64,000 nt of DNA from an uncultured Parasutterella sp. (GCF_900766055.1 NZ_CAAFTZ010000002.1); one strand, 5' to 3'; positions 47,387 through 53,490 are shown, counted from the first letter of the stretch. The notes: a model not told the origin generated them from the letters alone. Program-made: numbers and translations.

Positions 47387-48838
47387 ATGGCACGAGCTAA
47401 AAAAGAGCGGGCAAAATATGTCGCCGTTATTGAGTCCTTGGATCAGGAAGGCCGCGGAGTCGCACGCCGTGACGGTAAGGTCGTATTCATCGAAGGGGCG
47501 CTCCCTGGCGAAAAAGTAGAGTACGAGGTCTATCGCAGCAAACCTTCCTTCGAATTAGGTCTGACCACCGAAATTTATAAGGAGTCTCCGCTTCGCGTTA
47601 TGCCGAAGTGTCCTTACTTCGGGGTTAAGGACGGCAGCTGCGGCGGCTGCGCCATGCAGCACCTCGAAGCCCATGCTCAGGTTGCCATGAAACAAAAAGT
47701 TCTGATGGATGCTTTGTGGCACATCGGCAGAGTTCGACCTGAGCAGGTACTGGCGCCGATCTATGGCTCTGCATGGAGATATCGTCACCGCGCTCGTCTG
47801 TCCGTACGCGAAGTCGCCAAAAAGGGAACTGTGCTCGTCGGCTTCCATGAAAAGCGTTCAAGCTTTATCGCAGACATGAAGAGCTGCGAAATCCTGCCGA
47901 AGCGTGTCAGCGATCTTCTCATGCCGCTGCGCGAGCTTATCAACTCTTTAACGCTGCGTAAGAAGATTCCTCAGATTGAATTGGCTGTCACTGATGAAGC
48001 TTTGGCTTTGGTCCTTCGTGTCTTAGAAAAGCCGACGACTGAGGACGAAGCAAAACTCAGGCAGTTCCAGAAAGATTATAGTGTTGACTTTTGGTACCAG
48101 CCGAAGGGCCCGGATTCCATTTATCCGATGGATCCCGAAAATGCCAATCGACTGAAACTGCACCATCGGGAAACCGGTGTGGAAGTCGTCTTTAGACCTA
48201 CAGACTTTACGCAAGTAAACCATCGCTTGAACGAAGTGATGGTGACCAGAGCGCTTCGATTGCTGCATCTTGAACCCGCGTCTAGGGCCATCGATTTCTT
48301 CTGCGGGCTCGGCAACTTTACGCTGCCGCTGGCAACCAGAACAGCGAAAGTTCTTGGTATTGAAGGCAGCTCCGAGCTGGTCGAACGTGCACGTGCGGGC
48401 GCTAAAGACAATAACCTCGCGGATAAGACCGAATTTGAGGCTCGTAATCTGTTTGACTGGACACTGGACGATTGGGATGCCGTTTGGAATAAGCTCGGCA
48501 GTGTAGATCGAGTTCTTATCGACCCGCCGCGCGAAGGCGCAATGGCACTTTGCCGCTCGCTCGCTGACACGGACAAACGTCCTGCACGTCTGGTCTATGT
48601 TTCCTGTAATCCTGCAACGCTGGCGCGCGACGCTGCGCTGCTTGTCAGAGAAGGCGGCTGGAAGCTTCTGTCGGCCGGTGTGATGAATATGTTCCCGCAT
48701 ACAGCTCACGTCGAGAGTATCGCCGTCTTTGAACCGGGTCCCAAACCGGAAAAAGTCGACGAAATCGATGAACTCGAAATCAGCGGAATGACTGAAGAGG
48801 CTGAGCAGGAAGCTCGATCCGAGGAATCGAAGATTTAA
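47387..48838 (+). CDS. rlmD: 23S rRNA (uracil1939-C5)-methyltransferase RlmD (RumA)
   Basis: TRAM domain, Cys cluster (CPYFGxxxxSCGGCAMQH), SAM-MTase fold (DFFCGLGNFTLPLA, DPPR). Confidence 0.85.
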   Translation: MARAKKERAKYVAVIESLDQEGRGVARRDGKVVFIEGALPGEKVEYEVYRSKPSFELGLTTEIYKESPLRVMPKCPYFGVKDGSCGGCAMQHLEAHAQVAMKQKVLMDALWHIGRVRPEQVLAPIYGSAWRYRHRARLSVREVAKKGTVLVGFHEKRSSFIADMKSCEILPKRVSDLLMPLRELINSLTLRKKIPQIELAVTDEALALVLRVLEKPTTEDEAKLRQFQKDYSVDFWYQPKGPDSIYPMDPENANRLKLHHRETGVEVVFRPTDFTQVNHRLNEVMVTRALRLLHLEPASRAIDFFCGLGNFTLPLATRTAKVLGIEGSSELVERARAGAKDNNLADKTEFEARNLFDWTLDDWDAVWNKLGSVDRVLIDPPREGAMALCRSLADTDKRPARLVYVSCNPATLARDAALLVREGGWKLLSAGVMNMFPHTAHVESIAVFEPGPKPEKVDEIDELEISGMTEEAEQEARSEESKI

Positions 48839-48843
48839 CGGAA

Positions 48844-49383
48844 ATGGCGCCTTTGGTTTTTCAGATCGTAATTCTGTTTGTCAAAATTTTGGCTGAGCTG
48901 CTGCTCATCATTCTGGTGCCGGCCTTCGCCCTAAAATTTTTCAAGAAAGACTTAAGCTTCGGTTTGGCATTTTCTGCCTCTATCCTGATGATTTTGCTGC
49001 CGGTGCTCACATACGTAAATAACGCTGAACTCAACAACACCATGCTGCCGCTCACTGCGTGGGGTGTGGAGTCAGTATTGACGCTTTCGTGGATGAGCTG
49101 GGGGCTTTCGACCGGCGCCATCATCTCTTTTTTGTATGCTGCTTATCTCATTGTAGAAAGCCGAAGTTCCGAGACGATAAATCTAGTCCTGCTTTTCACG
49201 GGTATCGGCTACCTTTTAAATTTATTGTCACAGGCGGCTGCCCCCTATTTGTTGTTCGGGTCTTTCGGCGCAGGAGTTGCCAAAGATGACCTTCCGTTTT
49301 TATGCTTGTCGCTGGTACTTGCCTTAGGCATAGGTATCTATGTGCGGTATTCTGAGGCCGCTGGAAAAACATTCAGCAATTAA
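48844..49383 (+). CDS. hypothetical polytopic membrane protein A (179 aa)
   Basis: about 5 predicted TM helices; 5-bp gap to rlmD; no family motif recognised. Confidence 0.5.
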   Translation: MAPLVFQIVILFVKILAELLLIILVPAFALKFFKKDLSFGLAFSASILMILLPVLTYVNNAELNNTMLPLTAWGVESVLTLSWMSWGLSTGAIISFLYAAYLIVESRSSETINLVLLFTGIGYLLNLLSQAAAPYLLFGSFGAGVAKDDLPFLCLSLVLALGIGIYVRYSEAAGKTFSN

Positions 49384-49406
49384 TAACTAAAACTAAGGAG
49401 AATAGG

Positions 49407-50033
49407 GTGGAAGAAAGCGGAGTATTTGAGTACTGGTTTGCTTTTTTGTTTGCGTTGGGTTTCTGTGTCTGGTTTCCCACGTATGTTATCAAAACCAAAG
49501 GGCAGGGCATCTCGACTTGGGGATTGGCGCTTTGTATTGTCGTCCTGTTTATCGGACTGCCTCTGCTTTCGATTAGCTTGATCCGCGATGTTCTCCCTTC
49601 TCTGTGGCTGAGCTTTGTCAGTGCAAACTATGAGTCTCCGAGCATCTCCCTGCTTTACGGGACCATTCACAAGATGGCTACGCTGGATCAGCTTTACGTA
49701 GCGCTGGCCATGATTTGTATTTTGGTTGCCATCGGTCAAAGCGTTTTTGCTTCTTGGCTGCTTTATATCCGCCACAACCGCGAAAGTCTGGTTCGTGCTC
49801 TGAGAATCATGTGGTCCTCGGCTTTCTTTATTGTGTTGGCAGGCGGTATTCTGCCGCTCATTATTCTGGGCTCGCACGGATTTACGGTGGCGATTCCTGC
49901 CGGATATACGATGGGTGCTTACATCGCAGTGCTCATGGTGATCACTGCTTACCTGAGAATGAGTCCGCAGGTAGCGGATAATTATCCTATTAGCCACCAG
50001 CCGAAAAAAGATCGGGAAAAAAATAGGGGTTAA
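49407..50033 (+). CDS. hypothetical polytopic membrane protein B (208 aa)
   Basis: GTG start with SD AAGGAGA; similar architecture to A and C. Confidence 0.5.
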   Translation: MEESGVFEYWFAFLFALGFCVWFPTYVIKTKGQGISTWGLALCIVVLFIGLPLLSISLIRDVLPSLWLSFVSANYESPSISLLYGTIHKMATLDQLYVALAMICILVAIGQSVFASWLLYIRHNRESLVRALRIMWSSAFFIVLAGGILPLIILGSHGFTVAIPAGYTMGAYIAVLMVITAYLRMSPQVADNYPISHQPKKDREKNRG

Positions 50034-50036
50034 CGC

Positions 50037-50561
50037 ATGGAATTTCTTATGACTGTCCGCACACTGATTGCAACCACCGTGATGCTGTTTTGCTCATTAT
50101 GGCTGGCGTGGCAGTTAAAGATCCGTTGTCCCAAACTTCCCGTTTCTGCCGTTTTGATCTTGTCTTTGATCATGCTGTTTGAGCCGGGCATGCTGGCCTT
50201 CTTGGTTTGGGTAGTGCACGATATAGCATCCGTTAACGGGGGGCTGATGATTCATGCCTATACTTTTGTTAAGGCAGCGGTCGCGATTTATTTGCTTTTC
50301 ATTCTTCCGTCGATCTGGTTTGCCAGAAGCTTCTATGTTGAAAGCAAAATCGTGACTCTCAAAGCCTTGCGTTTCGCGATCATTCTTCCGGCAGCATTTA
50401 CAGCTGTCACATTTATTGAAGTTCCGAAAATGATCTGGCAGGACCGCGCTTCGGAGCTTGTTTCTTCCGGTTTGGAGACGTTCATCGTGGTGGCGGTGAT
50501 CAACCTTATCCTGCTTGCATTAACCTACCGGTTTAAGGCCCCGAATATACCTGCGCAGTGA
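50037..50561 (+). CDS. hypothetical polytopic membrane protein C (174 aa)
   Basis: 3-bp gap to B; TM1, basic loop (KIRCPK), further TM helices as in A and B. Confidence 0.5.
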   Translation: MEFLMTVRTLIATTVMLFCSLWLAWQLKIRCPKLPVSAVLILSLIMLFEPGMLAFLVWVVHDIASVNGGLMIHAYTFVKAAVAIYLLFILPSIWFARSFYVESKIVTLKALRFAIILPAAFTAVTFIEVPKMIWQDRASELVSSGLETFIVVAVINLILLALTYRFKAPNIPAQ

Positions 50562-50683
50562 CCGGTTGCCGGAAACGGTGCACGGCGTAAAACTAAGTAA
50601 TCAGGCGTTTCAGCCTCTCGTAAAACCTTAGTCCTAACTCCCTGCATGATAAAATCAACCGATTGTCTTGTAGACAAAAGAAG

Positions 50684-50712
50684 TGCGGAATCCTCCGCAT
50701 TTCTATTTTTTA
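50684..50712 (+). terminator. hairpin plus T-run immediately upstream of ndk
   Basis: stem TGCGGA/TCCGCA, loop ATCC, then TTTCTATTTTTTACTTTTATT. Confidence 0.5.
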
Positions 50713-50738
50713 CTTTTATTCGTTTTTAAGAGATTGAA

Positions 50739-51167
50739 ATGGCTATTGAACGCACACTTTCGATTATTAAACCCGATGCAGTTGCCAAAAACGTTATCGG
50801 TCAGATCTACTCCCGTTTTGAATCCAACAACCTCAAGATCGTTGCTTCCAAAATGAAGTGGCTTTCCCGTCAGGAAGCCGAAGCTTTCTACGCAGTTCAC
50901 CGTGAACGTCCCTTCTTCAAAGATCTGGTCGACTTTATGGTTTCCGGTCCCGTTCAGATTCAGGTTCTCGAAGGTGAAAATGCCATCATGAAGAATCGTG
51001 AACTCATGGGCGCAACCGATCCGAAGAAGGCTGCCAAGGGCACCATCAGAGCCGATTTCGCTCAGTCTATCGACGCTAACGCTGTTCACGGCTCCGACAG
51101 CCCCGAAACAGCCGCTGTTGAAATCGCTTTCTTCTTCCCGCAGATGGACATCTACGCCGGCCGTTAA
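50739..51167 (+). CDS. ndk: nucleoside diphosphate kinase
   Basis: 142 aa, [15 protein letters not shown] and catalytic NAVHGSD motifs. Confidence 0.9.
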
Positions 51168-51236: not shown

Positions 51237-52409
51237 ATGACAGAAGAAAAGTTGCCTCAGAAAGTGAACCTCCTTGGATTTGATGCCGAGGGGCTGAAGA
51301 AGTTTTGTGAAGATCTCGGAGAGAAACCTTTCCGTGCCAAACAGCTTGAGCGTTGGATTCATCGCCGCGGAGCACACGATTTTTCTGAAATGACGGATCT
51401 TGCTAAATCTTTCCGAGCCAAACTCGAGAAAGTTGCCGAGATTCGGGGGCCCGAAATTATTCGGGATAAGACAGCCGCCGACGGAACTCGTAAGTGGCTG
51501 CTTGATGTCGGCAACGGCAACGCCGTTGAGATGGTTTACATTCCTCAGGACGGCCGCGGCACACTTTGTGTGTCTTCTCAGGCCGGCTGTGCGATGAACT
51601 GTTTGTTTTGTTCGACGGGTAAGCAGGGTTTCAACCGTAATTTGAAAGCATCGGAAATTATTGGCCAGCTTTGGCATGCCGAACATACTTTGAGAAAAGA
51701 TCTCGGCATTACCGATGAAAACGAAAGAGTAATTTCCAATGTTGTCATGATGGGTATGGGTGAACCGCTCCAAAATTTGGATGCCGTCATTCCGTCCCTA
51801 AAACTGATGCTCGACGATAACGCTTACGGCTTATCACGCCGACGTGTTACCGTCTCTACTTCCGGTCTGGTCAGGCAGATGGATAAGCTTGCCGAACAGT
51901 GCCCGGTCGCATTGGCGGTCAGCCTCCATGCTCCGAACAATGAGCTCAGAGATAAGATCATGCCGATTAACCGCAAGCATCCGCTCGAACAGCTGCTTGC
52001 GGCATGCAAGCGTTATTTGGAACACGCTCCGAGAGACTTCATCACGTTTGAATACATTCTCATCGGCGGCGTCAATGATTCACTCGCACAGGCTAAGGAA
52101 CTGATTACCTTAGTTCAGGACATTCCCTGCAAGTTCAACTTGATCCCCTTTAATCCTTTCCCTGGATCTGGTTTGGAACGTAGTAAGCCCGAAGCGGTCA
52201 AGGCTTTTGCCGACCGATTGAACGGTGCAGGTATTGTCACGACTGTAAGAAAGGTTCGCGGCGACGATATCGATGCGGCCTGCGGTCAGTTGGCCGGGGA
52301 AATTAAAGACCGTACCAAGCTCGCTGAAAAGAGAGCAAATCGCGAGATAATCATCAAAGAAATTTCAAAGAGCCCGGCGAAAGCAACAGGAGACGAGAAA
52401 AATGTCTGA
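51237..52409 (+). CDS. rlmN: 23S rRNA m2A2503 / tRNA m2A37 methyltransferase RlmN (radical SAM)
   Basis: CxxxCxxC (CAMNCLFC), collinear with E. coli RlmN. Confidence 0.9.
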
Positions 52410-53490
52410 GAACAATATCAGCCTGGAAGCCAAAGACCAGCCGTTCGAAGCAACGACATACGGCGGCTTGCTGCGTATTGCCCGTGAAAATAAAGATTTG
52501 AGTATCGATCAGGTGTCTTCTCAGCTGAGAATCTCACCGGATCAGATCGAAGGTTTGGAGTCGGATAACTATAAAGTTTTCCCGACGCCTGTTTATGCCC
52601 GCGCCCATCTCCGCAGCTATGCTCGTTTATTAGGTGTGGACGAAGCGAAGATTATTTCGCTCTTTAATGCGGCGCTGGCGCCGGACGATAAGGATCCCCG
52701 CACCTTTATTCGCCGTACAACTCAGGAGCTGGCGCCTTACCATGACGCTCAGCCGAAAAACTTTGTCGGTAAATTTATTGCCGGGCTGCTTTTCCTGGCG
52801 GTTGTGATTGCATTGGGTTGGATCGGCTACAACTACTACATGAATCAAAAAACGGAAAAAGCTGCCGAAGAACCTCAGGCAGAGATCTCTCAACCGGCTG
52901 AAACGCCGGCTCCGACCGCCGAACTCTCCAAGGCCTCTGAAGCAGCACCGGTTTTAGTGTCCAATACAACGGTAGAGCCTGCCGCTCAGCCTGAGGCTCC
53001 GGTCCCGGCTGCAGCAGAGACTCAGACTCAGGCTGATCGAGATGCTGCTTTGAAAGAAAAACTTCAGAAAGAGGCAGAAGCAGCCGCAGCCGCTAAAGTC
53101 GCTGAAGAAAAGCGTTTAGCAGAAGAGGCTAAGAAAACTGCTGCTGCCGCAGCTCCTTCTGTTGCCGCTCCTGCAAAGCCGCTGACACTGACTCACAATG
53201 AAGCCGAAGGCCGATGGGATCTCGTGGTACCGAAATCTGCGAACGGAACTTACAAAGTGACGATCGGTGCGGACGGCGGTGAATGCTGGTTCGGCGTCTA
53301 TCAAGATAAGAAACTTGTTCATAATGCCCAGTTAAAGAGCGGCGAAACTCGTGACTACGAAGTTCCGTATCCTTTTAAAGTCTCCGTCGGCAATCGTGCC
53401 AAGGGATTTGTGAAAGTTGACGGAGCGCCTGTTGATTTGAATATCAATAATCGCGCAGCTTCCACCGTGTTTACTTTGGTTCAGAAATAA
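52402..53490 (+). CDS. rodZ: cytoskeleton protein RodZ (HTH plus TM plus DUF4115)
   Basis: N-terminal XRE-type HTH, single TM, Pro/Ala-rich linker, C-terminal DUF4115-like domain; position rlmN-rodZ-ispG. Confidence 0.75.

What the first reader, a model, noticed from the sequence alone, without database searches (positions are those of the whole stretch)
48844..50561. Tandem array of three paralogous small polytopic membrane proteins inserted between rlmD and ndk
Three back-to-back ORFs (179, 208 and 174 aa; gaps 5, 23 and 3 bp; each with its own SD-like sequence) encode membrane proteins with the same apparent layout. Each has an N-terminal TM, a short basic cytoplasmic loop (KFFKKD / KTKGQG / KIRCPK), then 3-4 more TM helices. 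Sampled GC is lower than the flanks (about 38-52%, mean about 45%). No motif of a known transporter or enzyme family is visible. They interrupt the otherwise conserved rlmD ... ndk-rlmN-rodZ-ispG order. A terminator-like hairpin (50684-50712) separates them from ndk. Tandem paralogous small membrane proteins without a catalytic signature are typical of immunity-protein arrays or lineage-specific envelope factors, so this is the best candidate in the window for an undescribed membrane module.
Basis: partly seen in the sequence, partly recalled or inferred. Interest (0 to 1): 0.55.

Follow-up and report, generated by a model that had tools for sequence, protein, structure and literature searches.

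The report
Clade-specific trio of small membrane proteins
Three real, conserved genes for small five-helix inner-membrane proteins sit between rlmD and ndk in the gut bacterium Parasutterella and its closest relatives only; they match no known family, show no sign of being immunity genes, and their function is still unknown.

Summary
All three are under purifying selection (dN/dS 0.04-0.11).

Each is predicted to have five transmembrane helices, with the N-terminus outside and the C-terminus inside.

A and B are true but distant paralogs (hhalign 97% probability, E about 1e-11). C is at best a very remote relative (44-65% probability).

The array is not a recent insertion. rlmD-A-B-C-ndk synteny is kept from Parasutterella to Turicimonas and related gut Sutterellaceae genomes assembled from metagenomes. 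GC3 equals that of the flanks.

B is the constant and best-conserved member. One lineage lacks C, and one contig lacks A next to B.

A B profile searched against 1.84 billion representative proteins found only 15 true relatives. Pfam, NCBIfam, PADLOC, PHROGs, PDB sequences and Foldseek (PDB, BFVD) gave nothing.

No toxin, secretion or mobile genes lie nearby, so the immunity-array reading is not supported.

Most likely this is a vertically inherited, clade-specific inner-membrane complex, built on a B core with a strongly conserved cytoplasmic RHNR loop and co-transcribed with rlmD. The complex and the co-transcription are inferred. The function remains unknown, and interest is modest.

The parts
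48844..49383 (+). Gene A, 179 aa. Predicted 5-TM inner-membrane protein (N-out/C-in). A fast-evolving paralog of B.
   Evidence: ORF. Five hydrophobic segments and positive-inside bias. Orthologs of 20-31% identity sit in the same position in Turicimonas and the related metagenome-assembled genomes. dN/dS is 0.09-0.10. hhalign against B gives 97-98% probability, E 1e-10 to 5e-13, with reciprocal HMM hits. The start lies 5 bp after the rlmD stop and the SD is weak.
49407..50033 (+). Gene B, 208 aa, GTG start. Predicted 5-TM inner-membrane protein. The conserved core member, with an invariant cytoplasmic loop WLLY[IV]RHNRxSLxRAxRxMW (residues 117-136).
   Evidence: ORF. AAGGAG lies 6 nt before the GTG, and a conserved MEESG N-terminus in orthologs supports this start. 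Identity across the clade is 47-52%. dN/dS is 0.04-0.05. Loop 119-135 has mean pairwise identity 0.80 against 0.47 overall. B is present in every related locus, including those lacking A or C. The AF2 model has pLDDT 70 and pTM 0.68 and is all-helical. The profile search of 1.84 billion representative proteins listed 16 hits, 15 of them true relatives.
50037..50561 (+). Gene C, 174 aa. Predicted 5-TM inner-membrane protein. Fast-evolving and dispensable in one lineage. Possibly a very remote relative of A/B.
   Evidence: ORF. Orthologs are 18-24% identical at the same position. dN/dS is 0.07-0.11. Conserved K109, P130 and W134, within the motif EAPKxxWP. Absent in L019. The merged A+B profile against C gives hhalign probability 44% (local) and 65% (global), with a score of 32.9 against a topology-preserving null of 15.5 +/- 3.5. 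The AF2 model has pLDDT 51 and is unusable.
50670..50714 (+). Intrinsic-terminator-like hairpin plus T-run ending the rlmD-A-B-C transcription unit, 25 nt upstream of the ndk start codon.
   Evidence: The terminator scan gives 11 stem pairs and tail ATTTTTT. The RNA fold gives -19.6 kcal/mol, z -6.8, and 0 of 200 shuffles fold as well.
47387..48838 (+). rlmD (23S rRNA U5-methyltransferase family), the upstream gene. It is probably co-transcribed with A and translationally coupled to it.
   Evidence: ORF. Pfam tRNA_U5-meth_tr hits the orthologous gene in related loci. The gap to A is 5 bp here and ranges from a 4-bp overlap to 22 bp in relatives. No terminator-like site lies between rlmD and A.

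Best explanation
A, B and C are genuine, vertically inherited genes found only in the Parasutterella-Turicimonas branch of the Sutterellaceae. They encode three small inner-membrane proteins, each with five helices, the N-terminus in the periplasm and the C-terminus in the cytoplasm.

B is the functional core. It is present in every lineage and evolves slowly. Its conservation is concentrated on the cytoplasmic face, in an Arg-rich RHNR loop between TM3 and TM4.

A arose by duplication of B's ancestor. It most likely pairs with B as a pseudo-symmetric heterodimer in the same orientation. C is a remote relative, or unrelated, and acts as a dispensable accessory subunit.

The genes are expressed constitutively as the tail of the nlpD/rlmD transcription unit, which ends at the hairpin before ndk.

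The likely role is a housekeeping function at the cytoplasmic membrane: docking or regulating a cytoplasmic partner, or handling a cytoplasmic-side substrate. It is not defence or immunity.

Shown: the genes are real, the predicted topology, A-B paralogy, synteny, narrow distribution, selection regime, and absence of known-family membership.

Inferred: co-transcription, complex formation, cytoplasmic-face function, and housekeeping role.
For: - Real genes: dN/dS is 0.04-0.11, with 42-75 synonymous changes per gene.
- Synteny: rlmD-A-B-C-ndk is conserved in Parasutterella, Turicimonas muris YL45 and rabbit, roe-deer, chicken and human gut metagenome-assembled genomes.
- B alone is universal. 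L019 has A-B only. L021 has B-C only.
- A-B homology: hhalign 97-98% probability, E 1e-10 to 5e-13, over 160-173 columns. Reversed controls give E 0.4-0.7. The score of 79 compares with a topology-preserving null of 13.9 +/- 2.8. HMM hits are reciprocal.
- Same N-out/C-in 5-TM layout in all three families.
- B's cytoplasmic loop 3 has identity 0.80, against 0.29-0.36 for its periplasmic loops.
- GC3 matches the flanks.
- Operon signals: 5/23/3-bp gaps, no internal terminator, and a strong hairpin after C.
- The neighbours are all housekeeping genes.
Against: - There is no direct evidence of any interaction between A, B and C, or of any function.
- A and C evolve two to five times faster than the flanking genes, which would also fit weakly constrained or partly redundant proteins.
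- Loss of C in one lineage, and of A next to B in another, shows the trio is not obligatory.
- No conserved membrane-embedded charge or recognisable active site was found.
- Only B was searched exhaustively. The wider distribution of the A and C families rests on synteny and one pattern scan.
Confidence: 0.45

Rival explanations
1. The proteins form a small heteromeric transporter or channel. A and B would be two homologous 5-TM halves, as in paired small transporters encoded by adjacent paralogous genes, moving a small solute or ion. C would be an auxiliary subunit.
For: Adjacent paralogous genes encode small polytopic proteins of equal topology. Prolines and glycines are conserved in the TM helices, and B has an invariant Gln111 in TM3. 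Gene spacing is tight and operon-like.
Against: No Pfam or NCBIfam transporter family is hit by any of the 35 members scanned. No membrane-embedded acidic or basic residue is conserved across orthologs in any of the three families. Conservation in B is concentrated in a cytoplasmic loop rather than in the helices. There are no Foldseek hits to solved transporters. No solute-binding protein or ATPase gene lies nearby.
Confidence: 0.2
2. The three genes are an immunity array against membrane-targeting toxins (pore-forming bacteriocins or T6SS/CDI effectors).
For: The proteins are small and polytopic, lie in tandem, and have no catalytic motif. A and C evolve fast: 18-31% identity between genera, where RlmD is 65-70% and Ndk 92-94%. 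Gene content varies a little between lineages.
Against: The array occupies a fixed housekeeping position and is inherited vertically across genera. dN/dS is 0.07-0.11, with no sign of diversifying selection at gene level. GC3 is native. No toxin, secretion, Rhs or mobile gene lies within about 6 kb in any locus. PADLOC, PHROGs and Pfam give nothing. The most conserved surface, in B, faces the cytoplasm. The genes are carried on hundreds of contigs as a core locus.
Confidence: 0.07
3. The genes are weakly constrained 'filler' membrane proteins with no specific function. They persist because they sit inside a housekeeping operon.
For: A and C evolve fast. C and A are each missing in one lineage. 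No motif or homolog exists outside the clade.
Against: dN/dS is well below 1 for all three genes. ORF lengths and the five-segment layout hold at about 20% identity. B has 26 invariant positions across 14 sequences, including a complete loop motif.
Confidence: 0.15

Closest known systems
DUF2569 (Pfam PF10754; E. coli YdgK)
   Same: A small polytopic inner-membrane protein of unknown function. It gave the only Pfam hit approaching relevance for B: E 0.11, 13.4 bits, against a gathering score of 26.5.
   Different: Only 1 of 14 B-family members gives the hit. hhalign of the B profile against E. coli YdgK gives 0.1% probability. By the E. coli annotation YdgK is 146 aa, shorter than B. B is not a member.
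Immunity proteins of pore-forming colicins and bacteriocins, and T6SS membrane-effector immunity arrays (named from general knowledge)
   Same: Small inner-membrane proteins of about 110-180 aa without catalytic motifs. They are often in tandem and fast-evolving.
   Different: Those genes lie next to their toxin, on plasmids or islands, with variable copy number and patchy distribution. Here the position is fixed in a housekeeping operon, inheritance is vertical, there is no toxin gene, and selection is purifying. No Pfam immunity family is hit.
Heterodimeric small membrane transporters encoded by adjacent paralogous genes, such as paired SMR proteins (EbrAB, YkkCD), Fluc/CrcB pairs, and the 5+5-TM repeat logic of the DMT/EamA superfamily (named from general knowledge)
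   Same: Two adjacent, distantly paralogous genes for small polytopic proteins of equal length and helix number (A and B). Five helices per unit, as in one EamA repeat.
   Different: There is no sequence match to SMR, CrcB or EamA models. No membrane-embedded charge is conserved. Both partners are predicted to face the same way, whereas many such pairs are antiparallel. A third gene is present.

Membership tests
DUF2569 (PF10754) | Match to the Pfam model at or above the gathering score (26.5 bits) | tested here: not met
   13.4 bits, E 0.11, in 1 of 14 B-family members. hhalign of the B profile against E. coli YdgK gives 0.1% probability.
Bacteriocin/colicin or T6SS/CDI immunity proteins | Genetic linkage to a cognate toxin or effector gene | tested here: not met
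   All genes within about 6 kb in 10 or more related loci are housekeeping: surE, nlpD, rlmD, ndk, rlmN, rodZ, ispG, hisS. An unlinked toxin elsewhere in the genome could not be searched for.
Bacteriocin/colicin or T6SS/CDI immunity proteins | Patchy, horizontally mobile distribution with atypical composition | tested here: not met
   Synteny is conserved across Parasutterella, Turicimonas and the related metagenome-assembled genomes. GC3 is 55-58%, equal to the flanks.
Bacteriocin/colicin or T6SS/CDI immunity proteins | Protection against a specific toxin | not testable with these tools
   This needs competition or toxin-challenge assays with deletion mutants.
Known anti-phage defence systems (PADLOC-DB) | Match to any PADLOC protein model | tested here: not met
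   No hit at E <= 1 for A, B or C from the window or from Turicimonas muris.
Small transporter families (SMR, DMT/EamA, CrcB, LysE and others in Pfam/NCBIfam) | Match to the family profile | tested here: not met
   No transporter family appears at E <= 1 for any of the 35 family members scanned. PDB profile searches gave no hit with E below 0.02.
Small transporter families (SMR, DMT/EamA, CrcB, LysE and others in Pfam/NCBIfam) | Conserved membrane-embedded charged or polar substrate-binding or coupling residue | tested here: inconclusive
   No charge is conserved within the TM cores across orthologs. B does have an invariant Gln111 in TM3 and a near-invariant Glu8 at the outer end of TM1.
   A-B is met: 97-98% probability, E 1e-10 to 5e-13, with reciprocal HMM hits. 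A or B alone against C gives E 0.01-0.26, which overlaps the reversed controls at E 0.10-0.31. The merged A+B profile against C gives 44-65% probability, about 5 sd above a topology-preserving null, with 0 of 40 shuffles reaching it.

The most novel reading that the evidence does not exclude
A-B(-C) is a previously unrecognised inner-membrane complex with its own fold, invented in the Parasutterella-Turicimonas lineage. B's invariant cytoplasmic RHNR loop would recruit or regulate a cytoplasmic housekeeping factor at the membrane. Candidates are a partner tied to the ribosome-modification genes (rlmD, rlmN) or the cell-envelope genes (nlpD, rodZ) it is embedded among. That would make it a lineage-specific adaptor important for the physiology of a core human gut bacterium.
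Probability: 0.12. Interest if true: 0.55.

Novelty: new variant of a known kind. Interest (0 to 1): 0.3.

Why it matters
Parasutterella is a common member of the human gut microbiota, and Turicimonas muris is a mouse gut isolate (general knowledge). This locus is a clean example of a clade-defining, purifying-selected membrane gene set with no relatives among billions of sequenced proteins. If it proves to be a complex with a defined role, it would add a new membrane protein family and could serve as a marker or handle for this clade's physiology. As things stand, it is one of many orphan membrane operons. It offers no mechanistic surprise and does not bear directly on any long-standing question.

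Tried and rejected
- Pairwise BLASTP among A, B and C found nothing significant. Shallow profiles built from close homologs were too weak: A-B E 0.008, Neff 1.3. Diverse orthologs taken from syntenic loci were needed.
- The DUF2569 lead for B was rejected.
- Pfam, NCBIfam, PADLOC and PHROGs gave only noise.
- PDB sequence-profile searches gave only compositional TM noise: ATP synthase subunit c, bacteriorhodopsin and cytochrome oxidase subunit III, at E 0.02-5.
- Foldseek of the B model against PDB and BFVD gave a best E of 0.27-0.47, to generic helical bundles.
- The AF2 model of C reached only pLDDT 51, so no fold search was attempted.
- Rfam found nothing in 48500-51000.
- Foreign origin was rejected on GC3.
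- An ICMT/PEMT-like 'RHPxY' resemblance of B's YxRHNR motif was considered from memory and dropped. No Pfam, PDB-profile or Foldseek support appeared.
- P0118, the only non-clade hit in the exhaustive search, is a repetitive artefact matching just the RRHNER string.
- Literature searches for the strain's locus-tag prefix and for Parasutterella/Turicimonas comparative genomics found nothing relevant.
A sub-alignment worked.

Full report
**Observation.** The window carries three consecutive + strand ORFs at exactly the reported coordinates: A 48844-49383 (179 aa), B 49407-50033 (208 aa, GTG start) and C 50037-50561 (174 aa). The gaps are 5 bp after rlmD, then 23 bp and 3 bp. B has a canonical AAGGAG 6 nt before its GTG. 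C has AGGGG 7 nt before its ATG. A has only a weak GGA next to its ATG, and is better explained by coupling to the rlmD stop. The hairpin before ndk is real and strong: 11 stem pairs followed by a T-run, -19.6 kcal/mol, z -6.8. No terminator-like site separates rlmD from A.

The reported GC dip is overstated. The array is 47.7% GC against 50.8 +/- 2.4% for windows of the same size, which is the 10th percentile. GC3 is 55-58%, the same as or above the flanking genes. The dip is therefore the usual T-rich second-codon-position effect of hydrophobic proteins, not a sign of foreign DNA.

**Source organism.** The window is about 99% identical (protein B) to a Sutterellaceae MAG (a genome assembled from a metagenome), and 97% identical to Parasutterella excrementihominis YIT 11859 (taxonomy).

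**Are they genes?** Yes. Against two other Parasutterella genomes (L009, L011), dN/dS is 0.09-0.10 for A, 0.04-0.05 for B and 0.07-0.11 for C. Each gene carries 42-75 synonymous differences. The flanking genes give 0.00-0.05. ORF lengths and the hydropathy layout are kept in orthologs that share only about 20% identity.

**Distribution and context.**
- The word-indexed homolog searches returned only close relatives, labelled where named as 'uncultured Parasutterella sp.' hypothetical proteins.
- Gene neighbourhoods of the most divergent B homologs all show the order (surE-)nlpD-rlmD-A-B-C-ndk-rlmN-rodZ-ispG-hisS. So do a scan of one genome per GTDB species and a metagenome scan.
- That order is found in Parasutterella, in Turicimonas muris YL45, and in uncultured Turicimonas and 'Burkholderiaceae' MAGs from human, mouse, rabbit, roe-deer and chicken gut (taxonomy).
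- Between Parasutterella and Turicimonas, protein identity is 94% for Ndk, 81% for RlmN, 67% for RlmD, 46% for NlpD and 43% for RodZ. It is 50% for B but only 28% for A and 23% for C.
- An exhaustive HMMER search of 1.84 billion representative proteins with the B profile listed only 16 proteins at E <= 1e-3. One of them, P0118, is a repetitive artefact that matches only the string RRHNER. The B family is therefore confined to this small clade of gut Sutterellaceae.
- Gene content varies slightly. L019 has rlmD-A-B-ndk with no C and a 206-bp gap. L021 has B-C-ndk preceded by a 530-bp AT-rich spacer and flavoprotein genes, with no A or rlmD remnant. L018 has an unrelated secreted-protein ORF between C and ndk. 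B is the only constant member.
- E. coli keeps ndk-rlmN-rodZ-ispG-hisS-yfgM but has pbpC, not rlmD, upstream. The trio therefore sits at the junction of two conserved blocks. It does not interrupt a universally conserved rlmD-ndk pair.

**Paralogy.** BLASTP between A, B and C is not significant, and profiles built from near-identical sequences were too shallow. Adding the divergent syntenic orthologs changed the picture for A and B:
- hhalign A against B gives 97.0-98.1% probability and E 1e-10 to 5e-13 over 160-173 collinear columns.
- Reversed-sequence controls give E 0.4-0.7.
- A null that shuffles columns only within each helix or loop, so that the topology is preserved, gives a score of 13.9 +/- 2.8 (maximum 21.4). 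The real score is 79.0.
- The A HMM hits every B ortholog and the B HMM hits every A ortholog. Neither hits anything else among 1,256 ORFs of the window and loci.
- Shared features include P-[AT]-[FY]-x-[LI]-K at the end of TM1, LP at the end of TM2, and P-x(3)-[LF]-G-x(2)-G after TM4.

C is different. C against A alone or B alone gives E 0.01-0.26, overlapping the reversed controls at E 0.10-0.31. The C HMM hits only C orthologs. A merged A+B profile aligns to C end to end with 44% probability (local, E 2e-4) or 65% (global, E 8e-6). The score of 32.9 compares with a topology-preserving null of 15.5 +/- 3.5, and 0 of 40 shuffles reach it. So A and B are paralogs, and C is possibly a very remote third member. 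The C link is not proven.

**Architecture.** Family-averaged hydropathy shows five conserved hydrophobic segments in each family at similar positions. Counts of Lys+Arg give the same N-out/C-in orientation for all three. The loops after TM1 and TM3 plus the C-tail, against the N-tail and the loops after TM2 and TM4, give 6.5 vs 0.8 (A), 11.0 vs 2.5 (B) and 8.5 vs 2.0 (C).

In B the most conserved region by far is the cytoplasmic TM3-TM4 loop, W-L-L-Y-[IV]-R-H-N-R-x-S-L-x-R-A-x-R-x-M-W. Its mean pairwise identity is 0.80 against 0.47 overall, and its periplasmic loops score 0.29-0.36. A and C have few invariant residues: L52, P53, W73 and F118 in A, and K109, P130 and W134 in C. These lie mostly at the periplasmic ends. 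No charged residue inside a helix is conserved across orthologs. No Cys pairs, His ligands or known catalytic motifs are conserved.

**Comparison with known families.**
- Nothing passes or approaches threshold in Pfam, NCBIfam, PADLOC or PHROGs, for the window proteins or for any of the 35 family members scanned.
- The one lead, DUF2569 for B (E 0.11), occurs in 1 of 14 members. A profile comparison with E. coli YdgK rejects it at 0.1% probability.
- Profile searches of all PDB sequences return only compositional noise.
- The AF2 model of B (pLDDT 70, pTM 0.68, all-helical) has no Foldseek match better than E 0.27-0.47 in PDB or BFVD.
- The C model was too poor to use.

**Interpretation.** The evidence fits a clade-specific, vertically inherited inner-membrane protein set expressed as the tail of the nlpD/rlmD operon. 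B would be the conserved core acting at the cytoplasmic face. A would be its diverged paralog and probable partner in the same orientation. C would be a dispensable accessory. Complex formation and function are inferences, and I put about 0.45 on this general picture.

A small heteromeric transporter is the main rival (about 0.2). It is weakened by the lack of any transporter signature or conserved intramembrane charge.

The immunity-array reading (about 0.07) is contradicted by several results:
- the fixed housekeeping position across genera;
- native codon composition;
- strong purifying selection;
- absence of any toxin, secretion or mobile gene nearby;
- the cytoplasm-facing conservation of B.

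A 'weakly constrained filler' reading (about 0.15) is contradicted by B's 26 invariant positions and by dN/dS well below 1.

**Verdict.** The 'three paralogs' claim is two-thirds confirmed. 'Undescribed lineage-specific membrane module' is fair, and 'immunity array' is not supported. These are new protein families (none in Pfam or NCBIfam) of an ordinary kind: orphan small membrane proteins in a housekeeping operon. No mechanism can yet be assigned, so interest is modest (0.3).

Noticed in passing
L021:3836-4366 and upstream (contig SKEB01000144.1): In this relative, B-C-ndk is preceded by a 530-bp AT-rich (38% GC) non-coding spacer. Upstream of that lie two FAD-dependent flavoprotein reductase-like genes and a LuxR-type response regulator, where nlpD-rlmD-A would be expected. 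No A remnant was detected. Whether rlmD-A sits elsewhere in that genome is unknown.
   Followed up: partly
L019:5370-6837 (GCA_965326405.1): This lineage has rlmD-A-B-ndk with no C gene, leaving a 206-bp gap. It also has an extra short LysM-only ORF (97 aa) in front of nlpD.
   Followed up: partly
L018:981-1568: An additional 195-aa ORF with a signal-peptide-like N-terminus lies between C and ndk in one Burkholderiales metagenome-assembled genome. It has no Pfam, PADLOC or PHROGs hit and is unrelated to A, B and C.
   Followed up: partly
L006:3340-4765 versus L007:1064-2488: rlmD is split into 391-aa and 87-aa ORFs in one metagenome contig but is intact (474 aa) in a near-identical contig. This is probably an assembly or sequencing frameshift. 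L025 shows similar splits of rlmD, A and rlmN.
   Followed up: no
P0026 (279 aa, Logan contig): One database protein fuses B to the N-terminal part of C. This fits a read-through or frameshift across the 3-bp B-C junction in that assembly.
   Followed up: no
window 50562-50738: The 177-bp C-ndk spacer places the terminator hairpin only 25 nt before the ndk start codon, so the ndk promoter and 5' UTR are unclear. The hairpin also scores as a terminator on the minus strand (50699-50684). No Rfam family matches.
   Followed up: partly
window 52402-52409: rlmN (51237-52409) and rodZ (52402-53490) overlap by 8 bp, which suggests translational coupling within the ndk-rlmN-rodZ-ispG cluster.
   Followed up: no
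P0118 (361 aa): The only non-clade hit of the exhaustive B-profile search is a protein made of five tandem repeats of about 65 aa, each containing AVRRHNERR. It is a spurious match to B's loop motif. Its origin was not examined.
   Followed up: partly
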